From NCBI GenBank assembly GCA_000002445.1, contig CM000208.1:3456001-3520000 (forward strand): DNA of 64,000 bases, given 5' to 3'. Positions 15,157 to 40,811 of this stretch are shown here, one piece after another. The DNA is from Trypanosoma brucei. Its lineage: Eukaryota. Each line of letters starts with the position of its first letter. The stretch's first letter is position 1. Both the position numbers and the translations under genes were made by a program. The notes below the pieces were generated by a model. It saw nothing but the letters and a program-made list of their open reading frames with translations, made no database searches and was not told the origin of the DNA.

Positions 15157-16419
15157 CTAATTAGCTGCTGCGGGAAGGGTGCTTGCAGGCCGTCTAACGG
15201 CACTCTCTGCGTATACCTGCGCAGCTGCATCGTGAAGCTTCTTGAACTCAAGGTAACGGTTCATTTGCATGCTCGTCTCCTGATTGGTCGTGCGCCACAA
15301 CGCCGTGCCGCTCTTGAGTGCGGCACTTTCATCCTCCTTCGTTTGTTTTCCGGACTCATCTGCCTTGTTTGTGGATGGCGGGGTCCCACCCTTCTGAGCG
15401 TTAGGCTCTCCTGCTGCTGCTTCTCCGGATCCCGTAGAACCACTGCCATTTGTACGGTCGCTTCTGGCATCCTGAGCATCAAACGCGTCAACATCCTCAA
15501 CATTCCCCTGAGCTCCTGCGTTGCTGTTCGCGTAACTGTCCTTCAAGACACCACTTGCTTGGCTTGCTCCCTCCTTCAACGCCGTGCGATCCCCTGCAGT
15601 GTTGAGTGGGAGCCATACGACACCAGATCCGTAAGGGTGCGAACTGAAATTGAAGCGCTGTTGCTTGCCCCTGACGCTGGGAAGCAACGAATCACGTAGT
15701 ACATCAGCTGGAGGCACTTGGCACTCATGTTTACCCTGCGCATTCACGGCAAAACAGTGACCGCATAAGTGTTCGTCCTCGGGGCATTCAGCGACCATCT
15801 TCTTCGTCTTCTTGTCCTGCTTCCGCACAAGTTCCCTCAACATCTCGATGTGTCTTACCGAAAGTGGCCGAGGCCCACCAGACGCCTTGTGTCCGTCTGT
15901 CACATTCTTTATTGTTTGCAACGCCTCCCGTAAGTCTTCATCAGCCGAGCACACTGGCTGCTGCTCCGCAGAGGCGGATTTGCCTTCCACCACAAGCTCT
16001 TGCCCATCAGTCCCCACAGATTGATCATGCAGCCGAACATCTTCATCTGGAAGTGTGAGGCCGGAACGCAACCGCTCTCGACGGAGCTCCTGCTCTGTGC
16101 GCAGCCGCTCCCTATTTTCGAGTATCAGCAGCTCCTGTAGGCGGTCACGGCGGCGGACCGGTACTGTTAGAGCGGCACGGGCCATGTTACCCCGTGTTGA
16201 CAGCAGCATTTCATCGGGCTCAAATTTGTACGAATTCTTCATGCTCGCCTTTAGGCTTTTCCCACGCAAGGTGTCATTTAGGGCTTTCACGTAAAGCTCA
16301 TCTTTGGTGTGGCAGTTAGAGTGTGGGAGCGTGATATTAAAGGGCTGCGTACCATTGAATGAGCGCTTCTTCTCACAATAGGAGCAGCGGCAGAAGTCTT
16401 TGCACTGCTCACGGAGCAT
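15157..16419 (-). CDS. Hypothetical Cys/His-cluster protein (420 aa from the first ATG); a member of the local paralogous trio
   Basis: The track start 16425 is GTG, and the first in-frame ATG is 16419..16417 (MLREQCKDFCRCSYCEKK). It carries an N-terminal C-x-DFC-x-C cluster, an R/E/L coiled-coil (DRLQELLILENRERLR) and a C-terminal HLCGHCF...HPYGSGVVWLPLN motif. Confidence 0.5.
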   Translation of the reverse strand: MLREQCKDFCRCSYCEKKRSFNGTQPFNITLPHSNCHTKDELYVKALNDTLRGKSLKASMKNSYKFEPDEMLLSTRGNMARAALTVPVRRRDRLQELLILENRERLRTEQELRRERLRSGLTLPDEDVRLHDQSVGTDGQELVVEGKSASAEQQPVCSADEDLREALQTIKNVTDGHKASGGPRPLSVRHIEMLRELVRKQDKKTKKMVAECPEDEHLCGHCFAVNAQGKHECQVPPADVLRDSLLPSVRGKQQRFNFSSHPYGSGVVWLPLNTAGDRTALKEGASQASGVLKDSYANSNAGAQGNVEDVDAFDAQDARSDRTNGSGSTGSGEAAAGEPNAQKGGTPPSTNKADESGKQTKEDESAALKSGTALWRTTNQETSMQMNRYLEFKKLHDAAAQVYAESAVRRPASTLPAAAN

Positions 16420-18025
16420 CCCCACTGTGTTCTCACTCTTTTATTTGATGAAATGCAAAACAAGGAATTGGAACCTTGACTCTTTTCTCTTGAACCTTCC
16501 GCAATATCTAAAGCAAAAAAGGATATTACCAGGCGCACTGCTGCGAGCACCGGTCGTTATGAGAGGTAAAAGGGGAATAGATAAGAATATGAATATGTAT
16601 ATATATATATATTTGTATGTGTTCATTATTTTTCAAGTGGCAGAAGTGAAGTTGTTAGAGGGCGCCAAATCAAATCCTCATGCCTCTTGAGGAGATGTAG
16701 ACAACACTTTAAACACGCACGCACGCACACACGCACACGCAACGGTACCAGTGTTACAATCATACACCCACAAAATACACAAAAAAAGGACGGGGATGGC
16801 GAAACACTTGAGGTCTACATGCATGCGTATGCACCAACACATAGAGATGTGTTTAGATGCGTCTGTGTGTGCGTGTGATTGATGAAGAGAGAAGGAAGTG
16901 AGGAGAGTGGTGATTTGTTACATGCAACTCTCCTTTGCTCTTTGACTCTAAGGGTGGATACAATACATCTTGTGACAGAATGAGATGGCAAGAATAAAAA
17001 CGGACTCAATCCTGTTGCGTTACCACGTGGCGTTACAACTCACACGATGTGGAACGACCATTATCATCCTTGTAGACATTGCGTTGGTGAATGAAAATAT
17101 AAAAAGGGGAAAAGTGCACGAACCCCATCACCAACCACCTCGTGTACATCCCCCACCTCACCTCTCGTTGTTTCCATTATTTACCTCTTTTGCTCGTATT
17201 GCTCGGCTCGTTTGCTCGTTCAGTTTGTTTTTGCTCCCCTCCCTGTGCGTGTACGTGTACGCATCTAACTCACACTCGTAATTACGCGCACAATTGCGTG
17301 CTGCCTTTCCCTCATATTCGTTTCTTTCCGTCTCTTCTTGCTCTTTCTTTCCCTCCTTCGGCACTCCACATGGCGTTTAAGCGGTTATACCGCCTGCAGC
17401 TAACCACAGGTATACTCCCATTGGTATAAGCATGCACACACACATATATATACGCAAGCAGTCTAATGCGAGATTTAAAAGGAAATATATTTTTTTTAAA
17501 AAGCAACTAATTTGCGCGAATTGGGAAAAAAACAAGTTAAGACCCGAGCATAAACAAAAGGAAACAGCAACTTCCTCTCCCACCCGCACACCAGCAAGCC
17601 AAAAGGAGGGCCAATGGAAAAGTTCCACAGAAGGGACTAATCGCACAGAGATCCTATATACATGTATATCGCCCCCATCACTGCATTTACACAGTAAAGA
17701 AGAGGGTAAACCAAAACGGAAAACAACTCACCAGCAACACCAAAAATACGAATACATAAAGAACCAAAAAAGAAAAACGGTGCCAAGTTAACCATCGAAA
17801 ATACAAAGCGACTCGACGTCTGAGACACGCAGAGGCATCAATGACCTACGAGAGCAGCGACCAGGCGGAGGGGGGGGAGGGGTGAAACAAAGCCCACGGG
17901 GCCCACAACCACCCCTCATCGACACAACCAGCTTTTTTCACTCCACGACTACTTCAACCCCAGTAGTATGAAATTCAACAGAAATATGGGGCTAGATTCC
18001 AAGAAGGGGGTTATGTCACCAGTTC

Positions 18026-25395: not shown

Positions 25396-26541
25396 TTACT
25401 TCCCTTCTGAAGTTCCACCGTTATTCTTATTTTTCGCAGCACCTTCTTTTCTACTTTCCTCCGTGGCGGCCTCCTTCGCCTTGTGCTGTTCGTTTCCTAA
25501 CTTTTCCTTTAGTGACCGCTCCCGCCGCGCTCTCACTTCCTGTATTTCGCGAGCTATGCGCCGTCGGTTAGCAATAACGTCGTAGAGAGTGCAGACACAT
25601 CGCCCAATGGCGGCGATGAACATTGCAATCGCCTGATCATTTGCATGCCGCACCATGTCAGTTGATGTCTTCAAGTGATAAATGTGCGGCTGCAGGCTGA
25701 TAACTTCCTGCAAGACACTCAAAACATCCTCTGAGATGGGCATGGTACCCTCTGCAACGTCATTAAGATACTCCTCAATTGACTGCAGAACACGACCGAG
25801 GTGGTCAAGTGAAAGCTCACGCTCCTGGACCTGGGCGGAAAGTGTTGTGATGGTGGAATCGGTAAGGTCCCGCAAGAGATGTTCAATACCGATTTCCTCC
25901 GCCTCTTCCGCGCCGAGATGTGTGGGGATGTTGCGAAACTCCAACGATCGCGCCCCGTCTCGGCCATGCACCGTCGTATAAGCCAGCACGGGCACACCTT
26001 TGTTGTTAGGATCTGTATTCACAATGCAGTACACCGGATTCAGCGAGAAGCGATCTGCAATAAGGAGGTGCAAGAGCATGTCATTCGGCTGCACCGCGCA
26101 CGAGGGACCTGCAGAATACCACCCAACAATCCGCACCTTGGGGTGTACGCGACGAAACATTAGGAACATTTCCTCTGCATAGTTTGTATCGAGAAACCAG
26201 ACATCAGGATTCTGAGGGTCCTCATCAAACGGAACAGCGAAACTGTTGTTGATGTCAAGCACTTGTATTCCACCAGGGTGGCTGAGGTGACGGCCGAGAA
26301 GAAGCCCAGCGACACGCCGCTTTTGTGACACTTTTGCGTTAACACGGGCGTAGTGGTCGACAAGTGAGAGCAAAACAAGTGGGTGAACCTCTACTCGTGC
26401 CCCCGCAGGAGTAAATACCGGAACATCTTTTCCACCATCACGTTCCGCGTCGCCGTCGTCCCCATTGACGGATGTGTCCTGTTGGTCCACTTCAGGATTG
26501 AGTACCGCAGGTTGCGGTTCCTTGGGGTCATCATTGGCCAT
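25396..26541 (-). CDS. RPN8: 26S proteasome regulatory subunit Rpn8 (PSMD7, MPN/Mov34 domain), 381 aa
   Basis: ATG at 26541. VHPLVLLSLVDHYARV, NSFAVPFDEDP, RIVGWYSAGP and AEEAEEIGIEHLLRDL are near-identical to remembered Rpn8/PSMD7 MPN-domain blocks. There is a lysine-rich C-terminal tail. Confidence 0.88.
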   Translation of the reverse strand: MANDDPKEPQPAVLNPEVDQQDTSVNGDDGDAERDGGKDVPVFTPAGARVEVHPLVLLSLVDHYARVNAKVSQKRRVAGLLLGRHLSHPGGIQVLDINNSFAVPFDEDPQNPDVWFLDTNYAEEMFLMFRRVHPKVRIVGWYSAGPSCAVQPNDMLLHLLIADRFSLNPVYCIVNTDPNNKGVPVLAYTTVHGRDGARSLEFRNIPTHLGAEEAEEIGIEHLLRDLTDSTITTLSAQVQERELSLDHLGRVLQSIEEYLNDVAEGTMPISEDVLSVLQEVISLQPHIYHLKTSTDMVRHANDQAIAMFIAAIGRCVCTLYDVIANRRRIAREIQEVRARRERSLKEKLGNEQHKAKEAATEESRKEGAAKNKNNGGTSEGK

Positions 26542-26785
26542 TAGCTATAAGAGTATAGTATATGGGAAACCAAATAACAACAACAACGATGACGACTACG
26601 ACGACTAAAAGTGAAACACAGTCCTCACAAAAATAACAGTGCAAGTTCACCGCTCTCCTTTTGTTCCCTCACTAACCTAACTTCTGATCACTATTTTCCC
26701 CTCGCTCCCTTCCTTCCTTCTTTTTTTTTTTCAATGCGTCTCTCTGGCTCCTACTATTGATCCACACTCCGCAATCGAAGCGGTA

Positions 26786-26920
26786 GCAATGAATGAATGA
26801 ATGAAGGAGGGGAGAGGGGAGGGGGGTCGACAAAGAGAGGAAATCCGCAAGTAAAAAATATAAAAAAAAAAGAAAGGAGAAGAGAGGAGAGAAATAGATA
26901 AACAAGAAGGCAAAACCACA
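26786..26920 (-). promoter_or_regulatory. Candidate polypyrimidine tract and AG trans-splice acceptor region for Rpn8 (polypurine on the plus strand)
   Basis: The plus strand here is G/A-rich (gaatgaatgaaggaggggagaggggagg...aaaaaaaaaagaaaggagaagagaggagag), so the minus strand is pyrimidine-rich. It lies about 250 nt upstream of the Rpn8 ATG with AG dinucleotides following. Confidence 0.3.
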
Positions 26921-28629
26921 AAATTTTGAGCAACACAGCACCAAGTACAGCCAGTAATTAGCCAACAAAAAAAAACACAAACAAAATTGGGCAGTCAGTC
27001 GAAAGAAAAGAAAATAAATAAATAGAGTGTTCCCGGTGAGACACACTGCGATTTTCTCTTTTTTTAACCCATCAGATTTTTTTTGGGGGGGGAGTAGGGA
27101 CTCATTGTTTGTGATGGATGAGGGTTTTTTTTTTTATTTGTCACCCATACGCTACTTCATTTTTCTCTCAAAACCAAAAAAAAAAAAGAAATTTTCTCCC
27201 GATTTTTTTTCTTACTCCCTCCCTCTCGCACGCTTTTGGTATCGAATTTACTTTTAAGTGTACAAAAAAACCCAGACGCTTCATCTGCGACTCGAGCAAA
27301 CGGGGAAAGGGAGAAAAATTGAGTAAAAAGAAAAATAAGAAAGAAAATAACAATAATAACAATGACGATGATGATGATGATAACGATAATGGTAGGCAAC
27401 TATACTATAAAGAGACGAAACGGCAGCAGCAGGAAAAAAAAAAAGGCATGAACCATCCCTCAATTCCTTTCACTCACTCATTCATTTATTTATTCATTCT
27501 CACCCTCATCCTCCACACCCTTCTCTCCCCCTCTGTAAAAACATGCCTCCTCCTCCCTTATGTTCTCCTTCTTTCTTTCTTTCCTTCTTATTTTTTAAAA
27601 AAAATTTTCATCATGAAAAAAAAAAAACAAAGAAAGGAGTAGGAACAGTGGATAGATTTGAAGAAGAGAAAAGACAAAAAGAAAGAGAAAGAGAACAACT
27701 ACACGGTATGTGAAAAGAGTTGAAGATAAAATATTTGCATGGCATCTTGAAGTTGAAATGATCCCAAAGTTTGATGGCATAAGGGATCGCGAGCTGTACA
27801 CAAACACACATATTTTGCATGCATTTGCCTTTGTGTATTTTCCCCCATGCCTGCGCAAGTAATGGCTGAGGCAACTGTAACGATTATTATAATGGGATAA
27901 TGGCAACCCGATACGGTAACACACAGGCACACACACACACAAAAAAAAAAATAATAATAATAGTACTAATAATGTGCTCGCCGCATTATTCTCTTTTTCC
28001 TTTTTTTTTTCCTCTCCCGTTTAGGAACGGTGTGTGTTTCTCGTTCCATCATCTAATAATCGCATCTTTCCCAAAGTTTTTTTTTTCATTTTATCCTTCT
28101 TTTTCTTCACTCTCTCCTCCTTCCTCTGAAGAAACCTCCTCATTCACACAAAACCATCAACGCAAACAAAAGCACAAAATAGACAATAATCACACACCAC
28201 AAGAGAACAACAATAAATGTAATTTGTAGCATTGACGAACGCGCCTTTTTCTTTTTCTTTCTTTCTGTTTTTTTTTCCCCCTCCCCCTCTCATTATTTTA
28301 TTTGGTGTTATGCTGTTGCTGTTGCTGTTGCTGTTGTTGTTGTTTTCCTTCTCTTGACAGCTCCTTCGCCTTCCCTCCCAATGCCATCGTTCCGTGCCTT
28401 CTCATTACCCCTCATCATCATCATCATTATCATTACTATCACATAGAAACCCATATATAATTTCCAGCCAAAAAGAAAAAGAAAAAAGAAAGATTCTCCC
28501 CTTCCCCCCTGATCCTAAAAAAGAAAAAAGAAATTCCTTTTGATGTTTTCTTTTTCTTTCTTCTGCCCCACCACTTTTCATTTCCTTTTTTTTTTAAATT
28601 CGCGTTCTCCTCCTCCGGTCGCATGAATG

Positions 28630-28641
28630 CATATATATATG

Positions 28642-28672
<31 letters not shown>
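28630..28672. repeat. (TA)n microsatellite
   Basis: Direct read: atatatatatgtatatataatatatatatatatatatatata. Confidence 0.8.
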
Positions 28673-31047
28673 CATACATAATCTGTTTAATTTATTTTTT
28701 TTATTTTGCCTATTCCTTTTCTCTTTACCAACTTTGAAAAATATTGTAAAAGAAAAAAAAAAGAAAAAAGGTACAAAGCTGAAGACATACTTTGCTAAAC
28801 AGGTGTTCACCGCTTCGACACTCACCTTTTGCTTATGTTCTCATTTTTTCCTTCCATCCCTTCCTCATTTCTTTTTGTCTTTTTTTTTTCTTTTCTTCCT
28901 TTTCCCTTTCTTTATGCATTTCATATGATAAATAGAAATAAATAAGCATATGAATACGAATACGAATAAATAAACAATCTTTCTTCTTCCTTTCTGCCCA
29001 AACACTGAGTTGTTTACCTCATCTTGTTTGCGTTGCTTTCACACGCCCTTTTCTTTTCCTCTTTTCTCTTATTTTCTTTTTCCCATTTTCGCTTGATGAG
29101 AAAACAAATATCGACGACAACAAAAGAAAAAAAAATTGTGCTCTTTTCTCTTCTCTTCCCTTCACCTTCTTTTTTTTTTCTTTTCTTTCTTTCCTTCACT
29201 TGTACTGTTCAGGAAGTCATTCATTTTCACACCTTATGATTATCTCTTTCACCACGTGCAGATATGTACTAATAACCAAAGTAATAAAGACAATAACATG
29301 AAGCATATGATCGAGTAATGCGCCTCGGTTTTCCCCTTTCTTGCGCTTCTTTAATATATTTTTTTATGTTTTTTTTTTCCTCCTCCTCTTCCTGATCTCC
29401 ATTTTTTTTTTCTTTTTTTCCTTTTTCCTTTTTTCCTTTTTTTTTTTAACTTCCATTTTCATGAATCAGGCAATTGCGAAGAGAAATAATGAAAGAGAAA
29501 CACACAAACACACAAGGAAAGGGATAAACAAAAAAAACGAAAAAAAAAAAGAAGACAACAAAGTGAAACAGAAAAGAAAAAAGAAAAAAAAGGACAAGTG
29601 CAGATTTCATAATCTCAGTGGGTAAAAAAAAAAAAACTTTACCATTTCATCTCCCTTTTTCTGTTCCGACTTTTTCTTTTCATCCTGATTAGAACACAAA
29701 ACGTAAAAAGATATTAACTGTAGACGAAACAATATGAGAAAAAAAGAAAGAAAGAAAAAGGAAGAAAAAAAAAAGAGAAAAGGGATAAAACTTACATTTT
29801 GAAGAAAACAAAACATAGAAAGAGAAAAAAAAAAGAAACGAAAACAAGAAAAAAAAAAGAAGAGCTATGGCACATTCTTGTTTGTTTATTTGTTTGTGTG
29901 TGCGCTAAATCAATAACAAAACACAATAAAAGTGTTTCCACCACTTCAATCAACAGGCGAAAGGGAGACAGATGAGGGGAAAATATTTTAAAAAAAAAAC
30001 AAGGACAGAGAAGGAAAGGGAGCGAGGCAAAAAGAAAAAAAAAGACAAACAAACAATAATCAATCATTACAAGTCGTATTAACAATAATAAAAAGGTGAC
30101 ACCATTACTAATAAGTAATAATCATCATAATAATCTTAGTAGTAACAATAAAACATTAATACTAACAACAACAACATTAAACAATAGCAATAACAACAAC
30201 AATAATGATAATGATAATAACAATAACCATAGAAAACGTACTGTTACAAATTCATTTTCTCCCCTCCTCCCTTCCTTCTTCCTTCTCCATTGGTATCATT
30301 TGAAAAACAAATTGGAAGAGGAAAAAGAAAAATAAAAAGGGAAAACATATTGCGGTTGTTTCATTACTTCTGTCTATGTGCACCTTTTCCAAATCCCTTC
30401 AAACAAACATATTCTTCCGTTATTCTTTTGAGAATTGTCCCTTTTATTTGCCGTTTTCTTTACTTATTTCCCTTTCACTCCGTGTTTTACATTTCATATT
30501 ATTTTATTTTTATTTTTATTTTTTGCTTCATTACTTTTTTCTTTTTCTCTTCCTTCATTCTGTCCCGTTTTTTTTTTTGACAATTTTACAAAAAAAAAGA
30601 AAAAAAGAAAAAGTTTTCCTACATTGTCCCTTCTTCGTTTCTCCATTCGTTAACTCCAAGCCCTTTTCCTTCCCTTTTTTTGTTTGTTTTTCTCCCGCCG
30701 TGTCCCACAACATCTTCTTTTGTTTCTTCCACCGCGCTCCCCTCCTCTACAAAATATTTGTTATAAATCGTTGCATAAACAAAAACAAAACAACAAAAAA
30801 CAAACAAACAAACAACAACAACCAAAGAAAAAAAAGAAAGAAAAATGATTTTCCTCACACCATTCATCTCCCCTCATCAGCCCACCTCTCGCCTAAACAA
30901 AAAAAAAAACAGTAAAGTCATAAAATATCAACAACAGTAACAATAGTAGAAGTAATAGTAGAAGTAATAATAGAAGTAATAATAATAATAATGAGAGTAA
31001 TAATAGTACTAACAATATTAACACTGATATTTCTTAATAATAAAAAA

Positions 31048-31080
<33 letters not shown>
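31048..31080. repeat. (GAT)11 microsatellite
   Basis: Direct read: gatgatgatgatgatgatgatgatgatgatgat, flanked by (AGT/AAT)-rich repeats. Confidence 0.85.
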
Positions 31081-32489
31081 AATGATATATATATAAATAA
31101 AAAAAGAAGACAATAGTGGTAGTAGTAGTAATAATAACAATAACGAAATGATACGAGAGAAGTTACAAAATGCACCATTTTTTTTTTTAATCCCTTATTT
31201 CATTTTCATTTACTTGTGCATGAATACACATATATCCATATATTCATCCATGAATAAATAAATACCTAAACACATTCTTATGTTTAAATATAAATAAATA
31301 TATAAACACATGATTATACAAATATATATGTATATATAAATATAAGACGCGCACCTGCGTAGTTCACTTCATCTTTTTTTTTCTTAATTTCCCTCCTTTT
31401 CTTTCTCTTCTTCCTGTGTTTTTTGGTGCCGCTGATTTCATTTTAGTTTTAATTTTTGTTTCGTTAAATTGATCACTTCATTTGCAGCTGTTGAACCTAC
31501 GAACAAAATTTAAAAAAGCGCTAGCAATCGGAGCCTTCTTCGTCGTTGGGTGCTGATGTTATTTTGAATGAATGAATGAAAGAAAGAAAGAAGGGTAACT
31601 TATTTCATTTTATATTATATTATATTAATTTTGTATGAATTTATTCTACTTTGCATTACTTGCTTTTCTCTCTCTCTTTTTTCTTTCTCTTCTCTCTTTG
31701 TTGATCCATGCATGCATTTCTATTCTTTTCGCTTCATTTCCCCTCATCTTCATAACCATCATATTTACACCAAAACATATTTTTTTTCTTTTCTTTTTTA
31801 TTTTTCCTCGCTCTCATTAAATTCCATCACTAAACTTTCTCTCACCCCCATTCCCCTAATTGCGTTATTTCCGCAATCCCCATGAAGTCGCGGTCGCACA
31901 CTATCCTAAAAATATAAATATCTGTTATACATATACATATATATATATTTATATTTATTTATTTTTTTAAATACTCTGTTTTATTTCGTTTCCTTTTCTT
32001 TTTGTTCTTGTTGTTGTTATTGCTGTTGTCGCTTGTTTTGTTTCTTTTTAATTATTATTATTATTATTTTTTTTTCTTTTTACGTCCTCGTTTTCATTCA
32101 TTTTATTAACTTTCTTTGTTTTTATTTTTATTTTTTTCTTTTTAAAATACCGTTTCATTTTAGGAACTTCTCCTCTCTTATTTTATACCATATCATCGTT
32201 ATATCACCACCACCATTGCCATCGTATTATTATTATTATTATCATCATCATCATCATCAATATTGTTACCCCCTCCTGTTTGTTCGAGTACAAAAAGCAG
32301 AGAGATACAAACCAAACAACAACAACAAGGAAAAATAATAATAATAATAATAAAAAAACAAAAGATGGAAAAAAGGGGGAAAAACAAAAAAACAGAAGAA
32401 GAAAAAAACGAACACGTATTTAAAAACTTACAAGTAAAAGAGAAAAAGAGTAAAGAGAAAACGAAAAATAAGAAGCGGGAGAAATGAGA

Positions 32490-32558
32490 TTTATTTGATT
32501 CCTCATGTGGACTCCCTTCCCTGGTAGATGCAGGAATCCACATGAGGAATCAAATAAA
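32490..32558. repeat. Perfect 22-bp inverted repeat (stem-loop with a 25-nt loop)
   Basis: Left arm tttatttgattcctcatgtgga at 32490..32511. Right arm tccacatgaggaatcaaataaa at 32537..32558. The two arms are exact reverse complements, and the loop is ctcccttccctggtagatgcaggaa. Confidence 0.8.
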
Positions 32559-33232
32559 ACATATAAAAATCAAAACAATACAAAAAAAACAAAAAAAAGG
32601 AGGAGGTCGCAGAGGCGAAGCGACGTGCTGAAGAGTGTACTGAAAACAAATGAAAGGAACAAAAAAAAAAGGCAAAAAAAAAGAGAGAGGGGTGTTGAGA
32701 CCATTGAATGTTTTTGATTGCCAGCAAAGCGATAAAAACAAAAATAAAAGTAAAAAAAAACTATTCTACCGAAGGAGGGGGGAAGAAGGCTTTTTTTAAA
32801 AGGACAAACAAGGGGAATAGGGAAGAAATGAACAAAAAGCAAAAAAAAAAAACACCGCTATCGGAAGTGAGTCATAACACTACGCACGCTATATATATAT
32901 ATATATATATGCGCCTCTTTTTATACGGGTGTGCGCGTGCGCTTTCCTTTTTTTTTCTTTCTTTCTCCTCTTCATTCCTAAATATTTATTAGTTCGTGTG
33001 GCATCGAGTGAAATCCGTCGTTGCGTGCGGGGTCGCTAAAAAAAAAAAAACAAAAACAGAAAAGGGTAAAGGGTAAAAACTGTCAACCTCCATTATTCTT
33101 TTTCTTTTCCCTAATTATTTTACCTTCAATTTTATTTTGGCTCCTCTTCTTTTTTTTTAATTTCATTATTTCCTTTTACACCAAACACATTTACACTCCT
33201 TTTTCTTTTTATAAATATACTGCCGTTCTCAC

Positions 33233-33236
<4 letters not shown>

Positions 33237-33270
<34 letters not shown>
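33237..33270. repeat. (TA)n microsatellite
   Basis: Direct read: tatatatatatatatatatatatatatata followed by tttatataaatatatataaataaatat. Confidence 0.8.
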
Positions 33271-33276
<6 letters not shown>

Positions 33277-36200
33277 AATATATATAAATAAATATTTCTT
33301 TCTCTCACTGTACCTCTACCCTTTTAAACATTTCCCAACAACCACTGGGCTCAATAGAAAAAAAAAAAGTGACAACAACGGTATTATCACCGTGAAAAAG
33401 AGAAAGAAAAAGATATGGTAAAAAAAAACATAAATACAAATATAAATAGAAAGAAGGTGGGGAATAATTTAAAAAAAAACTGAAAGAAAAAAAGAAAAAA
33501 ACAAGGGGAAAGAAGTCAAATCCAAAAGACGTTAACGGTGAAATAACACAAATTGGAAGAAAAGATAAAAATGAAGATAAATGGGACTTTTATAATTTAA
33601 TAAAAGAAAAAAAACAACAAAGGAGACATTTTATTTTGCTTCACCGGCTTTCTTTTCTTTTTCCTGCTTTCATGGGAGAAGGAAGGACGAAGGAAAGAGA
33701 AACTTTACAAAAAAAAAAAAGAAACGAAAACGAAAAATTAAAAAAAACAAAAAAAAACAAAAAGCAAAAGGGAATGGAAAAAGTGACACCAGGCGACAAA
33801 GTGGAAAATGAGAAGAAGATAAAAGACAAAAAAACAGAAGGGAGAAGAGGAGGGGAACAAAAAGCAAAAACGTAATATCGCTCGAATAAAAATAAAAATA
33901 GAAACATAATTTTTTTTAAAAAAAAGAAGAGAGTCAACAAAGAGAAAAGTAGAAAAACAAAAAGTTAACAAAAACAAAAAAAATCATAGCGTGGACCCCA
34001 AGGGAAACTATTCTGTACTGTGCTTTTATTCATTTGGTTCACTTTCCTCCCTTGTCAAAGCGTCACCATAACGGTGACAACAAACGGTAGAACGCGATAA
34101 TAATAATAATAATAATAACAGTAATAATAATAATAATTGAACTCATATTTTAGTGCACGCGTGCGTGTGAGTGCAGGTTTAGGTTTGTGTACGCGTGAAC
34201 ACTTATTAATATTATATTTTAAAGGGTTGTTATTATTATCGTTGGTGTTAATATCGTTAGCATTATCATCATTATTATTAGGATCGAAGGAGCAAAACAA
34301 AAATATTTCGAAACATCAACAACAACAAAAAAAAAAAGGGAACTCTGGATAGGACCACGGGAGTTTAAACGGGGAGGATGGAAAAAAAACAAAAATAAAG
34401 AAGAAAAAGAGAGAAAACGGTGGATCTAGTGGAAATGGATGCCAAATAAACAAACAAATATATATATATATTGGTAATGGTATTGATATTGATATTGATA
34501 TATTGATATATTTAATAAAATGGAAAAAGCAAATAACAAGAAAGAGCAAAAGTGAAGACTATCAGACAACAACGACAACAAATGAAAGAATGAAATAAAA
34601 TCAAAAACTATAAAATTTTTAAAAAATTAAAAAAAGGAACTACAGAGACTTATGTGACGAATGAAGGAGCGAAGTGGGCGAACAGGAGCAGCATTAGCTG
34701 GCATACACACATACACATATGTTAATATGTAAATATGTAAATATATAAATTAAATACTAACCTAATATATAAACATATATGTACTTACCGGCACGTAAGC
34801 GTAGACATAGTTCCCTCACGCCCACAGCCCCTACTTCAAACATAAACATATATCCGTAGCACATATAATATTATATTTATATATACAAACATACATATAT
34901 ACGAAATAAGGTCATCCATCACCACTTCCATCAATATCTTTTTTTCTTTTCTTTTCTTATTTCATTGTGCTTTTGAGTTTCTCTCCCCCTCGCTTTTTTT
35001 TTCTTTTTTAACCTTTTGATTTGTTCGTTTGTTTCTCATTCTTTTTTTTTTCCTCCTACTCCCCCCCCCCTCTCCCTTTTTCCCGTAGTAAAGATTATTA
35101 TTATTATTATTTCTTTTTTTTTCCTCTCCCTCTCTCTCTCTCTTCACAGAAAATACAGTAAGGCACACATCTCCCCACTCACAGCACTAAACACAAAAGA
35201 GAGATTTTTCCTTTTTTTTTTGTTTTTTTGTAAAAGGAAAAAAAATGTACATACCAAAAACTAAAACAAAAAGAACAATAATAAAGAAAAAGTGAACGAA
35301 AACGAAAACAATGAGCGACAAGCGTAAACTTAATAAATAAAAAAAATGAAAAAAAATGAAAAATGAAAAAACAGACAAAAACCTCTTCGTGTTATTCCCC
35401 GTCCTCAGACCTCATTCTCATCATCTCACCACACAAATTTTCGCCACTTAAACGCCAGCTGTACTTTCGCCCCCTCCCCCCCCCCCAAAGAAAAAAATAT
35501 AAATATAAATATAAATAAAAATATTAATATTAATATTAACTTCGCGGTGTCACAAACTTCCCTTCTTCCTTTTCTCTCCTTTTCGTATCGAATACCTTCG
35601 CACAAACACACACATATAAATACATATAAAAAAAACGAAAAAAAAAAAATATATATATATATGTATATTTCGTACACGGTGGCATCCCTACTACAAATAT
35701 TTGAGAAGAACAAAACAAGAAAAAAACCTTTGTGTATTCCTCTTTTTTCCTTCTTGGTTATTTTAATTTTTTTAAAAAAAAATTATTTATTTATCGATCT
35801 CTGCATTGTCTTCACCGAATCGCGCACGCTTCATTCTTTTCCTTTGAAATCATTTTAAAAAAAAAACTCGAAATTGTTTCGTATGCGCTTGCGGGCTCTC
35901 ACGCCCCTCCCCCCAAACAGAGAAACCAACTAAAGTTTAAAACAAATGACAATAGTTTCTGTGCATATTTTCCCTCTCCTTAACAAGTACAAGAAAAAAC
36001 AAAAAAAAAAAAAGAAAAGCACACATTCACACACTTTGGTCGCCGCAAATGTGATTTCCATCCCCTTCGTTCTCCTTCCTTTCCCCCTTCTCTCCTTTTC
36101 TATCTTGGAAAAAAAAAATAATAATAAAACAAAATAAAGTAAAATAAAGTAAACAGTTTAATTATCTTCCCCCTTTTCACCCCACACACCCACACCGCAC

Positions 36201-37510
36201 GCACGCACGAACGTAAATTTTTATGCGTTGAGACTCTTCCTTTTCTTTCTTTATTTCTTTACTAATTTATTCATCTCTTGAGTGTTTTGTCATAGTTTTA
36301 TCATTATTTTTTTTTTTTTGCGTCTCCTTCCTTGATGCCGCTCAGCCGCTACACATGCCTTTTCTCGCCTTCCCTTCGTTTCTCTTCGGTGTTTTCTTTT
36401 TGCTTTCCTCCTTCTTCTTTTTCCCCCCTTTTTTCTCTCTTTTCTTTTTCTTGTTTTAGTTTTAATTTTAGTTTTAGTTCTATTTTTATTATTGTTGTTG
36501 CTTTCCCCTTGTTTTGCTCCTCCATTTCCTTCATTCCTTCCCTTGTTTTAATGTTGCGGTTTTTTGTTCTGTTCTCTCCTTCAATGCTTCTTCCTTCTCC
36601 GAAATCGTGTTCGGTACGGGTTCAGATGAGAAGTCACACACACACACAAAAAAAAAAAAAAGAGATTCGGCCTCCTCCCGCTCCCCCTTTAGGTTCCAAA
36701 AAAAAAAAAAAAGAGGCGTAACAGCACTCACAGCACTGTTTCTCCATGTTTCTTTTCCTTCTTCTTCTTTCTTCCTCTTCTTTTGTTCGTTTAACATCAA
36801 TGATATGTTTCGGTGAAAAGATAAAACGAACTGTAGAAGAAAATGGGAGAAGGAGGAAGACCGATGCAGTGGCACACCATCTGCCAAAAGCGCATCTTTC
36901 TTCTGCTCTTCTTTTCTTTTTATTTCTATTCCTTCTCCTTCCTTTCCCATTTTAGTCACTTCCCCTTCACCTTCCCATAACGCCACACGCCACATGCCGT
37001 CCAAAGACAGTTTGGTGACGGTAGAAAAGGTTTTTTTTTCCCCATCCCACCACTTTAAATACCCCTCAAACATAAATAAATAAATTTATATTTATATATA
37101 TATATATATACTTTTTTTTTCGTTTCTCTGTGCGCGAGCGGCTCCACGGCTGACGGTCAAGAATTTCTGAAACTCTGCTCCCTTCCCCTCCCTTCCCTTC
37201 CTCCTTCAGTAACAACACAAAAAGACGCTCCCTCGTCCTCCTCTAAGCGGAAGAGGAGTTCTGGGGTGAAACGAACTTCGAAACAAGAAAAAAAAAAAGG
37301 TCTCGCAACACTCCCCACCTCCTAACCAATAAACACACACTTACAATCATTCCGCTACCAACCAACTCACTATCCTATACCTACGTGTTGAACTGCACGG
37401 AGCACAATTTATCTTTCCAGTCACGCAAAGACAAAAAGGAAGCGTCAAACCTCAGCGTCACTTTCTTCCACAAAGTGTAGTTCTGCAGCCGTTAACACTT
37501 TCACACACAC

Positions 37511-39367
37511 TTACATGGTGGGGCCTCCTCCTCCTCCTCCAAACATCCCGCGCATATTTCCTCCCGATGCTCCAAATCCCCCGCTGCCGAAACCGCCACC
37601 ACCGCCACCACCACCGCCGCCGCGACCACCGCCCATTCCAAAACCACCGCTGTTGCCGCCACGCCCGAAAACGTTGCTCATTCCAAAACCACCGCTGTTG
37701 CCACCCCGACCGCCGCGATAACCACCGCCACCACCGCCGCCACCGCGACCACCGCCCATTCCAAAACCACCGCTGTTGCCACCACGCCCGAAACCGCGAT
37801 AACCGCCGCCACCACCTCCGCGGTTATTGTTGTTGTTATTATTGTTGGGGCGCTTGGCCAGTGCACGAACTTCAGGAGAAATGACCTGATTGGTCTCATT
37901 GAGAAGTGGAATGAGATCATCCACAATGTTGCGGTTCTTCTCGTTAAAAAATGAAATGGCGACGCCCACTTTGCCAGCACGGCCTGTGCGGCCGATGCGA
38001 TGCACGTAATCGTCAATATTGCTCGGCATGTCATATTGGATCACAACCCCGACATTGGGGATGTCGAGTCCGCGAGAAGCTACGTCTGTTGCGACAAGAA
38101 CTTGACAAGCGCCTGACTTAAACAGCCTGAGAGCCTCTTCGCGCTCACGCTGCACACGATCGCCGTGGATAGAAACGCACGCCAACTCGCTATTGCGCAG
38201 GAAACGCTCCAAATAATCGGCATCACGCTTCTTTTCGACAAAAACGAGAACAAGCTTGCCTTCATTTTCACGAAGTAACGTGAGTAGCGCCTGACGCTTG
38301 TCCGGGTCCTCAATCCAGCGAACGTCCTGAGTGATATTCTCCGTTGTGGAGCCCACGCGTCCAACCTGAAGGAACGAGTGGCGGCACATAAACTCCCTGG
38401 CGAGCCGCTGAATCTCAACGGGAAAAGTGGCAGAATAGAGCAGAGTTTGGCGCTGACCTGCCCTTGGCATATCACTGTCTGGACCTTGAACAATCATCCG
38501 AATTTGCGGTTCAAATCCCATATCCAGCATTCGATCAGCTTCATCCAATATCAGGAAGCGGATTTCAGAGAAGCGGACGTATCCACGAGAGAACATATCC
38601 ATAAGTCGTCCAGGGGTCGCAACAAGCAATTTACACCCGCGGGAGAGCTCATGTACCTGGTGGCGTGGATCAGCACCGCCATAGACGACTACACAGCGGA
38701 CAGGCGTATGGTAGGTGAACTTGCGGGCTTCTCCATAGATCTGAAGGGAAAGCTCCCTCGTTGGTGCAAGGATAAGGGCTTGGGGGCTGGAGTGGCTGCC
38801 CGGGCTGTACGGAGGGCGGTTCGAAATATTCAACAGTATCTCGTTGATAGCAGGAATAAGGTACGAAGCTGTTTTCCCCGAACCAGTTTGTGCACACGCC
38901 ATAAGATCCCGATGATTGAGCGCTGTTGGAATACCCAAGCTCTGCACAGGCGTTGGCTTGGTGTACCCACAGCGTTTCACATTTTCCAGCAGCACCGGAA
39001 CCATGTTCATTTCACTGAACGATAACACTGGCGCAATGTCGTTTGGCGTGATAGTCATATTCACCTCTCCGTGTTGGTCAAAGTTGATGCCCGGAGTGTG
39101 ATCCTTAAATATGTCCTCATCGGCTGGCTCCTCACGGTGGTAGCCATGGCCGGAGGTTTCCCCTTGGTACGGCACGTTGCGACGGATAAATTCGCCACGA
39201 CCACGGGAGGGGCCATCAAAACCTTCGCGCGGCCTTTGCTGATAACCACCATAGTTGTTGTACCCAACCTGGTGGCCGGCTTCGCCAAATGCTGGGGCGC
39301 GTGCCCACGGGTTGGCGTTGGGGTTGAACTGCTGATGGCCGCCCTGGCCGAAATTCATGCCGTGCAT
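37511..39367 (-). CDS. HEL67: DDX3/Ded1-family DEAD-box RNA helicase (trypanosomatid HEL67-like) with a C-terminal Gly/Arg-rich tail
   Basis: Motifs Q (TKPTPVQ), I (AQTGSGKT), Ia (PTRELS), DEAD (LDEADRMLDMGF), SAT and HRIGRTGRAG are present. The track ORF begins at TTG 39568 with a hydrophobic, pyrimidine-tract-derived extension. I place the start at ATG 39367..39365 (MHGMNFGQGG), directly downstream of a PPT-like stretch. Confidence 0.85.
   Translation of the reverse strand: MHGMNFGQGGHQQFNPNANPWARAPAFGEAGHQVGYNNYGGYQQRPREGFDGPSRGRGEFIRRNVPYQGETSGHGYHREEPADEDIFKDHTPGINFDQHGEVNMTITPNDIAPVLSFSEMNMVPVLLENVKRCGYTKPTPVQSLGIPTALNHRDLMACAQTGSGKTASYLIPAINEILLNISNRPPYSPGSHSSPQALILAPTRELSLQIYGEARKFTYHTPVRCVVVYGGADPRHQVHELSRGCKLLVATPGRLMDMFSRGYVRFSEIRFLILDEADRMLDMGFEPQIRMIVQGPDSDMPRAGQRQTLLYSATFPVEIQRLAREFMCRHSFLQVGRVGSTTENITQDVRWIEDPDKRQALLTLLRENEGKLVLVFVEKKRDADYLERFLRNSELACVSIHGDRVQREREEALRLFKSGACQVLVATDVASRGLDIPNVGVVIQYDMPSNIDDYVHRIGRTGRAGKVGVAISFFNEKNRNIVDDLIPLLNETNQVISPEVRALAKRPNNNNNNNNRGGGGGGYRGFGRGGNSGGFGMGGGRGGGGGGGGYRGGRGGNSGGFGMSNVFGRGGNSGGFGMGGGRGGGGGGGGGGFGSGGFGASGGNMRGMFGGGGGGPTM
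37560..37860. repeat. Internal tandem repeats encoding the RGG/GGFGM tail of the helicase
   Basis: The core cattccaaaaccaccgctgttgcc[g/a]cc[a/c]cgcccgaaa occurs three times on the plus strand, which gives GRGGNSGGFGM three times on the minus strand. Long (ccgccacc)n Gly-codon runs separate the copies. Confidence 0.7.
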
Positions 39368-40811
39368 TTTCAAATATCTTTTTTTTTTTGTGAGGGGCAA
39401 GATGGGTGCACAAGGTGGTGAAAGACGTGTCAAAGATTTAAAGCAAACAAGTAACGCTCGTGTAAAGAAGGACAGAGGACAAACAGTTAGCATAAACACG
39501 AAAACGGAGCAAAAAAGCAGCGGACCAAAGCATGGATACGCATGTGAGCAGTACGCAAAACAAAACAAAAAGGAATAAAAAATAGATCACGTTAAAAAAG
39601 CATTGAGGTGATCACACGAATGGCTTGGGCTCACCTCAAACAATACTCACATCACTCACGAACACATAATTCGATGTTGGTGTGCCTCATCCAACGTTCC
39701 CTTGAGTGTTTTTGCACACAATATTCAGTGGAAGGGAAAAGTAACAAGATGTAGCAGCAAAGGGGGAAAACAATGGAATACAACAAAACAAAGTAAGCAA
39801 TATAACAAGCTTCAACGGCCCAACATTACACAAAACATGTTTTGCAACCACGTCACTGCACAAAAGCCTCAATCTTTTTTTCCCCACCACCACCAGCATA
39901 AATAAGGGGTCTCATATAATATGCCTGAGATAACCTCTTTTCCTCACAGCAACAGCCCAGTAATTGCATCACCCCACCCCCACCCGTTAAAAATAAAAAA
40001 ATAAAAAGGACAAGGGCAACACCATCGCGTTTGTTTTTGGAACAAATTATGCACGTCCGCGCGCGGATGTACGCACGGAAACTAACAATGAAACTAAACC
40101 TTATGTCTCTCAGCCTCCCGTGAGAATATACGCTGCGTACACTTACACAGAAATTCGGTGAGGCCACGGCAGTGCAAGTAGTCCGCTTTGTAATGGGGCA
40201 CAACATCAGTGACAACTCTTTGGCACGAATTGCAGTGTTGCCTGAGGAAAGAAATCGAGAAAAAAAAGTGTTTACACTTTGATCCTTCCGTCAATATCGT
40301 AAGGTTGCAGCATAAACCCTCCATGCTGTTCATATCTCAGTGCAAGCGCAGATGCAACAGCCGCCGTTCACTATTCCACGGATGGCATAATCATCGGCGG
40401 CATTAAGTTCCTGTCTGTCCTTACCTACAAATAATGATCTCAACAATAAACAAATAGCAAATACACGAAGGAAAAACAAAACGCAGGAGAAGGACACATG
40501 TGAAATGTTACAAGTGAGGCCGACGAAACCTCCGAAACCACAGGTTACACCACTTCTGCGCGGCGAATCCAAACATGCAGAACAACCTACACATTACATA
40601 TCCCTCATTCTTTTCTAGTTCCCACAAGAATCCTTCCCACAACGCACGTAAACGAACTCCACCACAGGTGGTAAACACGTGGCAGTATAACGGACGCTGA
40701 GGAAGTAAAAAAAAAAAAATGTACATATATTGGTCTGTATAGATATGTTTGCGTACGCATAAATTAATACAAGGAAGCGTCTTACACCGGGGTCGATTCA
40801 CTGCCTCCGCC

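What the first reader, a model, noticed from the sequence alone, without database searches (positions are those of the whole stretch)
26542..37510. An ~11 kb gene-free microsatellite tract with alternating purine/pyrimidine blocks, embedded inside a same-strand polycistron
All other intergenic spacers in the window are 0.25-2.2 kb. This one is 11 kb with no credible ORF on either strand, yet the flanking genes (the DDX3-like helicase and Rpn8) are on the same strand. The composition flips between C/T-rich and G/A-rich blocks every 0.3-1 kb. The tract is packed with (GAT)n, (TA)n, (AAT)n, (GCTGTT)n, (CT)n and (GAAT)n arrays plus a perfect hairpin. One candidate explanation is an exceptionally long regulatory 3'UTR of the helicase. 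A second is an unannotated long non-coding RNA or small-RNA locus. A third is an internal head-to-tail Pol II termination/re-initiation site of the kind marked by H3.V/base J and H2A.Z in trypanosomes, though no tRNA is present here. A fourth is repeat expansion or a mis-assembly. There are no centromere-type 147-bp AT repeats and no retroelement ORFs.
Basis: partly seen in the sequence, partly recalled or inferred. Interest (0 to 1): 0.6.

Follow-up and report, generated by a model that had tools for sequence, protein, structure and literature searches.

The report
Giant 3'UTR of trypanosome DDX3 helicase
The 11 kb gene-free, repeat-rich stretch is real. It is almost certainly the unusually long, variably ended untranslated tail of a Trypanosoma brucei RNA-helicase messenger RNA, which a 2010 transcriptome study had already mapped.

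Summary
Window 26542-37510 is 10,969 bp with no credible ORF, about 15 times the median spacer in the window. It has low GC (0.33), 17 alternating purine/pyrimidine blocks, 22 short tandem arrays and one strong hairpin. An independent long-read assembly (Lister 427) is colinear with it, so it is not a mis-assembly.

The window is T. brucei TREU927 chromosome 10 (v4 coordinate = window + 3,456,000). Kolev et al. 2010 list the upstream helicase (Tb10.61.2130 = Tb927.10.14550, HEL67/DDX3-like) as a transcript ending at window 26960. That gives a 10,551-nt 3'UTR, with a major poly(A) site at 7,814 nt and a mean length of 5,961 nt, which sits at the top of that study's range. The same study calls no novel transcript inside the tract and places helicase and Rpn8 in one Pol II unit.

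The termination/re-initiation and mis-assembly candidates are not. Internal processing into UTR-derived RNAs remains possible.

My addition is comparative. An exceptionally long spacer follows the orthologous helicase in T. melophagium, Leishmania, Leptomonas and Phytomonas, whatever the next gene is, and with no sequence conservation.

This is an extreme example of a known kind, and of modest interest.

The parts
37511..39367 (-). CDS of the DDX3/Ded1-type DEAD-box helicase (Tb927.10.14550 = Tb10.61.2130, HEL67/DBP1), 618 aa.
   Evidence: Pfam DEAD + Helicase_C. 616/618 identical to the T. b. gambiense / Lister 427 protein. The old GeneDB ORF began at 39493.
39368..39387 (-). Short 5'UTR, up to the published transcript 5' end (v4 3495387).
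   Evidence: Kolev 2010 Table S1. No AG lies immediately upstream of this position, so the coordinate may be approximate.
26960..37510 (-). Mapped 3'UTR of the helicase mRNA at its longest form, 10,551 nt.
   Evidence: Kolev 2010 Table S1 gives a transcript 3' end at v4 3482960. The offset of 3,456,000 was checked at three positions.
29697..29697 (-). Most-used poly(A) site in procyclic forms (3'UTR of 7,814 nt).
   Evidence: Kolev 2010 Table S13: major PAS at 3485697, mean 3'UTR 5,961 nt, dispersion 2,564.
29530..29637 (-). Sense-strand polypyrimidine tracts just downstream of the major poly(A) site. They are the likely internal splice-type signal that positions it.
   Evidence: Tracts at 29594-29560 and 29555-29530, plus a U-run at 29635-29622. 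The published median distance from poly(A) site to splice site is 142 nt.
26803..26894 (-). Polypyrimidine tract and splice signal for Rpn8 trans-splicing. It lies 66 nt downstream of the distal poly(A) site.
25396..26541 (-). Rpn8 (PSMD7) CDS, the next gene in the polycistron (Tb10.61.2180).
   Evidence: Pfam JAB + MitMem_reg. PDB best hits are Rpn8/PSMD7, E = 5e-63. Its poly(A) site arithmetic matches.
32352..34417 (-). Cluster of 14 long, mostly accessible sense-strand polypyrimidine tracts, 3.1-5.2 kb past the stop. They are candidate sites for the shorter UTR isoforms.
35479..37412 (-). Proximal block that is purine-rich in the RNA (C/T-rich on the + strand). Its few polypyrimidine tracts are mostly predicted to be paired.
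32490..32558 (-). 27-bp stem-loop. The stems are identical in three T. brucei strains.
31048..31086 (.). (GAT)13 microsatellite, one of 22 short tandem arrays in the tract.
28631..28680 (.). (AT)25 microsatellite.
33238..33295 (.). (AT)n / (ATAT) array.
34097..34137 (.). (ATA)13 array.

Best explanation
The tract is the 3' untranslated region of the mRNA for the T. brucei DDX3/Ded1-type helicase Tb927.10.14550 (HEL67).

**Proposed mechanism**
- RNA polymerase II reads through it as part of one long minus-strand polycistron.
- The pre-mRNA is polyadenylated at several alternative places. Each of the two individually mapped poly(A) sites lies roughly 60-100 nt upstream of a sense-strand polypyrimidine tract.
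- The farthest site lies 10,551 nt past the stop codon and is coupled to trans-splicing of the next gene, Rpn8.
- The most-used site in procyclic cells lies at 7,814 nt.
- The mean and spread of the mapped sites imply that some sites lie closer to the stop codon.

**What is shown**
- The lack of coding capacity.
- The same-strand context.
- The real length.
- The published transcript-end coordinates.
- The absence of a published internal transcription start.
- The position of polypyrimidine tracts next to the mapped poly(A) sites.

**What is inferred**
- Single RNA molecules physically span the helicase CDS and several kb of tract.
- The roughly 33 internal polypyrimidine tracts are mostly kept silent by polypyrimidine-binding proteins. 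DRBD18 and DRBD3 do this at other long UTRs.
- The long tail serves as a platform for many RNA-binding proteins that tune helicase expression.
For: **Identity and published mapping**
- The window is T. brucei chromosome 10, and the helicase is the DAL972/427 protein.
- Coordinates map exactly onto Tb927_10_v4.
- Kolev 2010 Table S1 gives the transcript as 3495387 to 3482960, which is a 10,551-nt 3'UTR.
- Table S13 gives a major PAS at 7,814 nt, a mean of 5,961 nt and a dispersion of 2,564.
- That mean sits at the top of the paper's stated 3'UTR range of 10 to about 6,000 nt, against a median of 388 nt.

**No competing transcript or transcription start**
- No novel transcript in Table S7 has coordinates in 3,482,000-3,493,999.
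- One PTU spans Tb10.61.1810 to Tb10.61.2745.

**Sequence context**
- The distal PAS is 66 nt upstream of the Rpn8 polypyrimidine tract. The major PAS is about 100 nt upstream of tracts at 29594-29530.
- There are no credible ORFs, tRNAs or Rfam families.
- The length is reproduced in the Lister 427 long-read assembly.

**Fit with what is known**
- Long 3'UTRs of 5-8.5 kb are documented in T. brucei, preferentially on mRNAs for RNA-binding proteins (RBP10, DRBD12).
- In a DRBD3-depletion differential-expression table, Tb927.10.14540 ('hypothetical protein') and the helicase both show positive fold changes (logFC 1.64 and 1.22). I infer that Tb927.10.14540 lies inside the tract.

**Comparative evidence**
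- A 3.5-13 kb spacer, 6-16 times the local median, follows the orthologous helicase in four other trypanosomatid genera, even where the next gene differs.
Against: - The published poly(A) sites were assigned to the helicase by position, from short reads in procyclic forms only. Physical continuity of a 9.7-12.4 kb mRNA is not shown by anything I could read.
- A nanopore direct-RNA study found only five transcripts longer than 10 kb, and the helicase was not one of them, although its depth was low.
- The tract carries 33 internal sense-strand polypyrimidine tracts of at least 20 nt. Many are predicted to be accessible, so internal trans-splicing is plausible.
- The tract evolves fast: 1.6% substitutions and 8.4 indel events per kb between strains. 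There is no detectable sequence conservation between species. Any regulatory content is therefore not visible as conserved sequence.
Confidence: 0.78

Rival explanations
1. Most of the tract is not UTR. It is a string of separate non-coding RNAs, each spliced-leader-capped and polyadenylated at internal polypyrimidine tracts, and the helicase mRNA itself is much shorter.
For: - There are 33 internal sense polypyrimidine tracts, many of them long and predicted to be unpaired.
- Poly(A) site dispersion is very high (2,564) and the mean is well below the maximum.
- Polyadenylation in trypanosomes is coupled to downstream trans-splicing.
- In current T. brucei annotation, lncRNAs are embedded in other long 3'UTRs and can be processed either way.
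- No full-length helicase transcript longer than 10 kb appeared in the nanopore data.
Against: - Kolev et al. defined 'novel transcripts' wherever spliced-leader sites marked them. They list none in this 11 kb.
- They drew a single transcript to 26960.
- The most-used poly(A) site is already 7.8 kb out.
Confidence: 0.17
2. The tract is an internal head-to-tail boundary where Pol II terminates and re-initiates. It would be marked by H3.V/base J and H2A.Z/H4K10ac.
For: - The spacer is unusually long and AT-rich.
- It carries sense-strand G-runs (C-runs on the + strand at 35064-35073 and 35466-35486, read directly) and GT-rich stretches. I recall such features being reported near trypanosome start regions; this is from memory and was not tested.
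- Long spacers at the same position in other genera could reflect a conserved chromosomal landmark.
Against: - Kolev Table S14 includes the internal sites suggested by histone marks and by 5'-triphosphate reads. It puts helicase and Rpn8 in one unit.
- There is no tRNA or snRNA gene here.
- A transcript is mapped across the tract.
- In other genera the long spacer stays with the helicase even when the next gene is not Rpn8.
Confidence: 0.05
3. The length is an assembly artefact or a recent strain-specific repeat expansion.
For: - Short-read assemblies break here. DAL972 has a 100-N gap replacing about 5 kb. T. equiperdum, T. vivax and T. rangeli contigs end inside the spacer.
- Indel events between strains run at 8.4 per kb.
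Against: - The Lister 427 long-read assembly is colinear over 9.8-10.0 kb of the tract, with no large gap.
- Only 9.9% of the tract is tandem array, and no array exceeds 82 bp.
- Long spacers exist at the same place in four other genera.
Confidence: 0.02
4. The DNA itself is the functional unit, for example a replication origin, an R-loop or triplex-prone region, or a scaffold site. Transcription through it would be incidental.
For: - Homopurine/homopyrimidine tracts are 2-3.5 times denser than in the other spacers, on both strands.
- There is an excess of local self-complementarity. The mean folding z is -1.77, against -0.16 in the other spacers.
- Length is conserved without sequence conservation.
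Against: - There is no positive evidence for this reading.
- The features are equally expected from slippage-prone, weakly constrained UTR sequence.
- There is no centromere-type array.
- It lies inside a transcription unit rather than at a boundary. From memory, trypanosome origins were reported to map at unit boundaries; I did not test this.
Confidence: 0.04

Closest known systems
RBP10 (Tb927.8.2780) 3'UTR of T. brucei, 7.3-8.5 kb
   Same: - It is a very long, non-coding, polypyrimidine-tract-rich 3'UTR inside a polycistron, on an mRNA for an RNA-binding protein.
- Alternative internal processing gives shorter mRNAs and UTR-derived RNAs.
- lncRNAs are annotated inside it.
   Different: - The helicase UTR is longer (up to 10.55 kb).
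- It has not, to my knowledge, been dissected experimentally.
- The RBP10-binding motif UAUUUUUU is not enriched in it.
- Nothing I read indicates stage-specific expression of the helicase.
DRBD12 mRNA (about 8.4 kb) and other DRBD18/DRBD3-dependent long-UTR mRNAs
   Same: These long UTRs have internal polypyrimidine tracts that must be ignored by the splicing machinery. In a DRBD3-depletion differential-expression table, the helicase and the small ORF that I infer lies in its UTR both show positive fold changes.
   Different: I found no direct evidence that DRBD18 or DRBD3 binds this UTR or alters its processing. The supplementary tables that would show it were not available.
UTR-internal or UTR-derived transcripts (Kolev 2010: Tb927.4.4370, Tb927.4.4490; Guegan 2022 KS17gene lncRNAs)
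   Same: Alternative poly(A) sites within a long 3'UTR could release a downstream non-coding fragment.
   Different: The helicase is not in Kolev Table S3 (alternative 3'UTR processing). No novel transcript is listed in the tract.
Internal Pol II transcription start/termination regions of T. brucei
   Same: Both lie in a head-to-tail gene arrangement, and the spacer here is unusually long.
   Different: This site is not listed as a unit boundary, has no tRNA gene, and has a transcript mapped across it.

Membership tests
Trypanosomatid long 3'UTR within a Pol II polycistron | Lies between a stop codon and the splice signal of the next same-strand gene. | tested here: met
   The helicase stop is at 37511 and the Rpn8 ATG at 26541. 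All genes are on the minus strand.
Trypanosomatid long 3'UTR within a Pol II polycistron | No protein-coding or structured-RNA gene inside. | tested here: met
   - ORFs are low-complexity and none reaches a Pfam gathering score.
- There is no tRNA.
- There is no Rfam hit at gathering score. Only generic sub-threshold hairpin matches appear.
Trypanosomatid long 3'UTR within a Pol II polycistron | Mapped poly(A) sites of the upstream gene reach the distal end, about 100-200 nt upstream of the next splice signal. | tested here: met
   Published 3' end at window 26960 and major PAS at 29697. Polypyrimidine tracts lie 66 nt and about 100 nt downstream of them.
Trypanosomatid long 3'UTR within a Pol II polycistron | Single RNA molecules join the CDS to the distal UTR (Northern blot or long read). 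| not testable with these tools
   No read data were available. The nanopore study does not list this gene among its transcripts longer than 10 kb.
Internal Pol II termination/re-initiation site | Listed transcription start or unit boundary (5'-triphosphate reads, H4K10ac/H2A.Z sites). | tested here: not met
   Kolev Table S14 shows one unit, Tb10.61.1810 to Tb10.61.2745, containing both genes. This is literature data from procyclic forms.
Internal Pol II termination/re-initiation site | Adjacent tRNA, snRNA or rRNA gene (common at non-divergent starts). | tested here: not met
Internal Pol II termination/re-initiation site | H3.V / base J enrichment. | not testable with these tools
   No chromatin data are accessible.
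Centromere of T. brucei | Large AT-rich tandem arrays (about 147-bp class), usually with retroelements at a strand switch. | tested here: not met
   The longest repeat period in the tract is 36 and the longest array is 82 bp. The context is same-strand. Degenerate retroelement remnants were not searched exhaustively.
Endogenous siRNA locus (long inverted repeat or convergent transcription) | Inverted repeat of hundreds of bp, or converging units. | tested here: not met
   There is only a 26-nt-arm hairpin and imperfect low-complexity arms. The locus is not among the seven IR loci of Tschudi 2012. That paper's supplementary 'miscellaneous' list was not checked.
Independent lncRNA gene(s) | Own spliced-leader addition site and poly(A) site inside the tract. 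| tested here: inconclusive
   Internal poly(A) sites exist. No novel transcript was called in 2010. The later lncRNA catalogues could not be queried by coordinate.
Assembly artefact | Length not reproduced in an independent long-read assembly. | tested here: not met
   Lister 427 is colinear: 9,797 bp here against 10,000 bp there over the part held.

The most novel reading that the evidence does not exclude
The giant spacer is a conserved, helicase-linked functional module of trypanosomatids.
- Its length is maintained at 3.5-13 kb in Trypanosoma, Leishmania, Leptomonas and Phytomonas, despite complete sequence turnover and changes in the downstream gene.
- It might be kept for feedback control of the DDX3-type helicase on its own mRNA, or as a source of regulated UTR-derived non-coding RNAs produced by switching internal splice/poly(A) sites.
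- It would then be more than neutral, slippage-inflated UTR.
Probability: 0.2. Interest if true: 0.5.

Novelty: already known. Interest (0 to 1): 0.25.

Why it matters
At up to 10.5 kb, this is longer than any other trypanosome 3'UTR I found described. It exceeds the intensively studied RBP10 UTR, and it belongs to a central translation and stress-granule helicase.

It shows in extreme form a problem that the DRBD18 study I read (PMC9380746) describes as previously unexplained, and for which that study proposes DRBD18 binding as a partial answer. The question is how the splicing machinery ignores dozens of good polypyrimidine tracts inside a UTR.

The long spacer travels with the helicase across genera. 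That suggests length itself may be selected, which could be tested by truncation.

Practically, the tract breaks short-read assemblies. It has also attracted spurious small 'hypothetical protein' calls: two in the DAL972 annotation and, by inference, Tb927.10.14540 in TREU927.

Tried and rejected
1. **RNA 'self-masking'.** The idea was that adjacent purine blocks pair with internal polypyrimidine tracts and hide them.
   - The tract does fold better than shuffles: mean z is -1.77, against -0.16 in other spacers.
   - But internal tracts are not significantly more paired than functional ones (0.51 vs 0.62 unpaired, Mann-Whitney p = 0.33).
   - The idea is not supported.
2. **Known regulatory motifs.** The RBP10 UAUUUUUU motif, PUF cores, AUUUA and the CAUAGAA cell-cycle element are not enriched. 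The apparent UAUUUAU and UAUUAU excess comes from microsatellites.
3. **Cross-species sequence conservation of the spacer.** There is none beyond low-complexity matches.
4. **Hidden genes.**
   - ORFs of at least 100 aa give no Pfam family above its cutoff.
   - An exact-sequence look-up of six ORFs found nothing.
   - The Leptomonas ELO gene has no remnant in T. brucei, T. melophagium or L. donovani.
6. **Rfam at a permissive E-value.** It gave only generic miRNA-precursor look-alikes for the hairpin and the (AT)n array, far below gathering scores.
7. **Supplements not held or uninformative.**
   - The DRBD18 paper, the Guegan lncRNA catalogue and the Siegel 2010 UTR tables are not held as text.
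   - The one nanopore supplement that is held does not list these gene IDs.
8. **T. congolense orthologue locus.** It is not on record.


Full report
**What the sequence is**

The window is Trypanosoma brucei chromosome 10.
- The ORF at 37511-39367 (minus) is a DEAD-box helicase of the DDX3/Ded1 type (Pfam DEAD + Helicase_C).
- It is 616/618 identical to the T. b. gambiense DAL972 / Lister 427 protein.
- The ORF at 25396-26541 (minus) is Rpn8/PSMD7. Its best solved-structure matches are Rpn8/PSMD7, E = 5e-63.
- Every credible gene in the 64 kb is on the minus strand. Transcription therefore runs helicase, then tract, then Rpn8.

**Checking the observation**

The tract at 26542-37510 is 10,969 bp. 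The other 17 spacers are 234-2,244 bp, with a median of about 730 bp.

It contains no credible gene.
- The 13 ORFs of at least 100 aa are low-complexity peptides with no Pfam family above its cutoff.
- The frames tested hold 138-194 stops each.
- There are no tRNAs and no Rfam family at gathering score.
- A permissive Rfam scan gave only generic hairpin look-alikes.

Its composition is distinctive.
- GC is 0.328, against 0.38-0.48 in the other spacers.
- Purine and pyrimidine richness alternates in 17 blocks of 0.14-1.9 kb.
- The sd of the 200-nt purine fraction is 0.158. Shuffles give 0.035, other spacers 0.092 and CDS 0.050.
- Tandem Repeats Finder gives 22 arrays (1,088 bp, 9.9%). The other 16.9 kb of spacers hold one array.

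The hairpin has 26-nt arms, 96% complementarity and a 17-nt loop. It folds at -44.5 kcal/mol, z = -7.1.
- About 90% of the tract is low-complexity homopurine/homopyrimidine and A/T-rich sequence rather than microsatellite proper.
- The hairpin is near-perfect, not perfect.

**Is the length real?**

Yes.
- The Lister 427 long-read assembly (GCA_003543875.1, L001) is colinear with window 41000 to 27714, with no large gap.
- Over the part held, the tract is 9,797 bp here and 10,000 bp there.
- DAL972 looks 5 kb shorter only because a 100-N assembly gap replaces window 27135-32140.
- T. equiperdum, T. vivax and T. rangeli contigs simply end inside the spacer.

The tract is the fastest-evolving part of the locus.

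| Region | Substitutions | Indel events per kb |
|---|---|---|
| Tract | 1.6% | 8.4 |
| Neighbouring spacer | 0.9% | 1.4 |
| CDS | 0.4-0.5% | not compared here |

**What it is**

Searching the supplements of Kolev et al. 2010 (PMC2936537) for the old-style gene ID found the locus. Tb10.61.2130 is 'ATP-dependent DEAD/H RNA helicase', on Tb927_10_v4, minus strand.
- Its ORF runs from 3495493 to 3493511.
- The transcript 5' end is at 3495387.
- The transcript 3' end is at 3482960.

The offset to window coordinates is exactly 3,456,000. I verified this at the helicase stop, at the old start codon at 39493 and at the Rpn8 stop.

The published transcript therefore ends at window 26960, which makes the 3'UTR 10,551 nt. 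Table S13 gives a most-used poly(A) site at 3485697 (window 29697, 7,814 nt), a weighted mean UTR of 5,961 nt and a dispersion of 2,564 nt. The column meanings follow from the arithmetic. The paper states a median 3'UTR of 388 nt and a range of 10 to about 6,000 nt, so this gene sits at the top of that data set.

Both mapped poly(A) sites have the expected context.
- The distal site is 66 nt upstream of the polypyrimidine tract at 26894-26803 that precedes Rpn8.
- The major site is about 100 nt upstream of tracts at 29594-29530.
- The published median distance from poly(A) site to splice site is 142 nt.

**Testing the other candidates**

*Termination/re-initiation.*
- Kolev Table S14 lists transcription units from 5'-triphosphate reads at all sites suggested by histone marks.
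- It has one minus-strand unit, Tb10.61.1810 to Tb10.61.2745, which contains both genes.
- No tRNA or snRNA gene is present.

*Separate non-coding RNAs.*
- Table S7 (novel transcripts) has no entry with coordinates 3,482,000-3,493,999.
- The gene is not in Table S3 (alternative UTR processing).
- Even so, the tract carries 33 internal sense-strand polypyrimidine tracts of at least 20 nt. That is 3.2 per kb counting all 35 sense tracts, against 1.7 per kb in other spacers, and many are long and predicted to be accessible.
- Internal poly(A) sites imply that some coupled processing occurs.
- A small non-conserved 'hypothetical protein', Tb927.10.14540, shows a positive fold change together with the helicase in a DRBD3-depletion differential-expression table. 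From its ID number and its annotation I infer that it lies in the tract.
- Recent work shows that annotated lncRNAs inside long T. brucei 3'UTRs can be processed either as part of the UTR or independently.
- UTR-derived RNAs therefore remain possible alongside the long mRNA.

*Small RNAs.* The locus is not among the inverted-repeat siRNA loci of Tschudi et al. 2012. Its only inverted repeat of note is the 26-nt-arm hairpin.

**A caveat on the main conclusion**

The 2010 mapping used short reads from procyclic cells and assigned poly(A) sites by position. It does not prove that single molecules span the CDS and the distal UTR. A nanopore direct-RNA study found only five transcripts longer than 10 kb, and the helicase was not one of them, although its depth was low.

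**How it probably works**

Shown:
- The same-strand polycistronic context.
- The absence of genes.
- The mapped RNA ends.
- The polypyrimidine tracts positioned next to those ends.

Inferred from established trypanosome biology:
- Pol II reads through the tract.
- Polypyrimidine-tract-binding proteins, such as DRBD18 and DRBD3 at other long UTRs, keep most internal tracts from being used. Processing therefore happens mainly at about 7.8 kb and at the Rpn8 signal.
- The long tail offers binding room for many regulators. Long 3'UTRs in T. brucei are known to be concentrated on mRNAs for RNA-binding proteins and kinases, and this helicase is one such protein. It has been reported in stress granules and in eIF4F-related pull-downs.

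I tested one mechanistic idea of my own: that purine blocks pair with and hide internal polypyrimidine tracts.
- The tract does fold better than shuffles. The mean z is -1.77, against -0.16 in other spacers and +0.20 in CDS.
- Internal tracts are not significantly more paired than functional ones (p = 0.33).
- The idea is therefore not supported.

Known 3'UTR motifs are not enriched.

**Comparative result (my addition)**

The orthologous helicase is followed by an exceptionally long spacer in every trypanosomatid locus I could retrieve.

| Species | Spacer after helicase | Local median spacer | Next gene |
|---|---|---|---|
| T. melophagium | 7.0 kb | about 0.45 kb | a 209-aa membrane protein |
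| Leishmania donovani | 13.2 kb | about 1.1 kb | Rpn8 |
| Leptomonas pyrrhocoris | 6.1 kb | about 1.0 kb | an ELO elongase |
| Phytomonas Hart1 | 3.5 kb | about 0.55 kb | an ELO-like ORF |

- The long spacer stays with the helicase whatever follows it. That fits a property of the helicase transcript rather than of Rpn8 or of a fixed chromosomal boundary.
- There is no sequence conservation between species.
- Microsatellite richness is mainly a T. brucei and T. melophagium trait.
- All four spacers are lower in GC than the 10 kb upstream of them. The purine/pyrimidine block pattern is clear in T. melophagium and L. donovani and weaker in Leptomonas and Phytomonas.
- Whether these spacers are UTRs in the other species is untested.

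**Comparison with what is known, and verdict**

This is the same kind of object as the RBP10 (7.3-8.5 kb) and DRBD12 long 3'UTRs, only longer. Its ends were already recorded in a published supplement, so I rate it as already known.

One of the four offered interpretations is right, two are contradicted, and one (UTR-derived RNAs) stays open.

Interest is modest. It is an extreme and possibly conserved example that would make a good test case for how trypanosomes ignore internal splice signals. It is not a new kind of element.

Noticed in passing
window 39368-39493: The original GeneDB ORF of the helicase started at 39493. The mapped transcript 5' end (39387) lies inside it, so the real start is the ATG at 39367 (618 aa). 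The published 5' end falls in an A-run with no AG immediately upstream; the nearest AG is at 39379-39378. The coordinate may therefore be off by about 10 nt.
   Followed up: partly
window 37592-37816: The helicase C-terminus is a Gly/Arg-rich (RGG-like) region encoded by imperfect tandem repeats (78-nt unit x2, 9- and 15-nt units). It differs by two Gly residues between TREU927 and the DAL972/427 protein.
   Followed up: partly
window 32490-32558: A 27-bp stem-loop sits in the middle of the tract. Its stems are identical in TREU927, Lister 427 and DAL972, and 427 has only a 2-nt loop deletion. A spurious 114-aa ORF (32199-32543, minus) starts inside it. The equivalent ORF is annotated in DAL972. 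Function unknown.
   Followed up: partly
window 35064-35073 and 35466-35486: Runs of 10-16 C on the + strand, which are G-runs in the transcript sense. From memory, G-runs were reported near trypanosome transcription start regions. No start is mapped here.
   Followed up: no
L002 17259-17358 (T. b. gambiense DAL972, FN554973.1): A 100-N assembly gap stands in for about 5 kb of the tract (window 27135-32140). Two small hypothetical ORFs are annotated in the remaining part.
   Followed up: yes
L008 17973-18839 and L009 15485-16324: An ELO fatty-acid elongase gene lies between the helicase and Rpn8 in Leptomonas pyrrhocoris, and Phytomonas has an ELO-like match at the same position that the gene caller did not call as ELO (it places a 107-aa gene of unknown function at 16127-16450, overlapping the match). 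No remnant is detectable at this position in T. brucei, T. melophagium or L. donovani.
   Followed up: partly
L005 18972-19601 and 21656-21925: T. melophagium has a 209-aa multi-pass hydrophobic protein gene just upstream of Rpn8. A 51%-identical paralogue lies just downstream. It has no Pfam family and no counterpart in the T. brucei window.
   Followed up: no
L006 10001-15993: The L. donovani gene call for the helicase is an odd model: a 505-aa product spread over 6 kb. The uninterrupted helicase ORF is 9914-11758 (614 aa).
   Followed up: partly
window 26542-37510, both strands: Pyrimidine tracts are as dense on the antisense strand (41) as on the sense strand (35). In ordinary spacers the sense strand dominates (27 vs 17). 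The transcript therefore carries unusually many long purine tracts, which no explanation above requires.
   Followed up: partly
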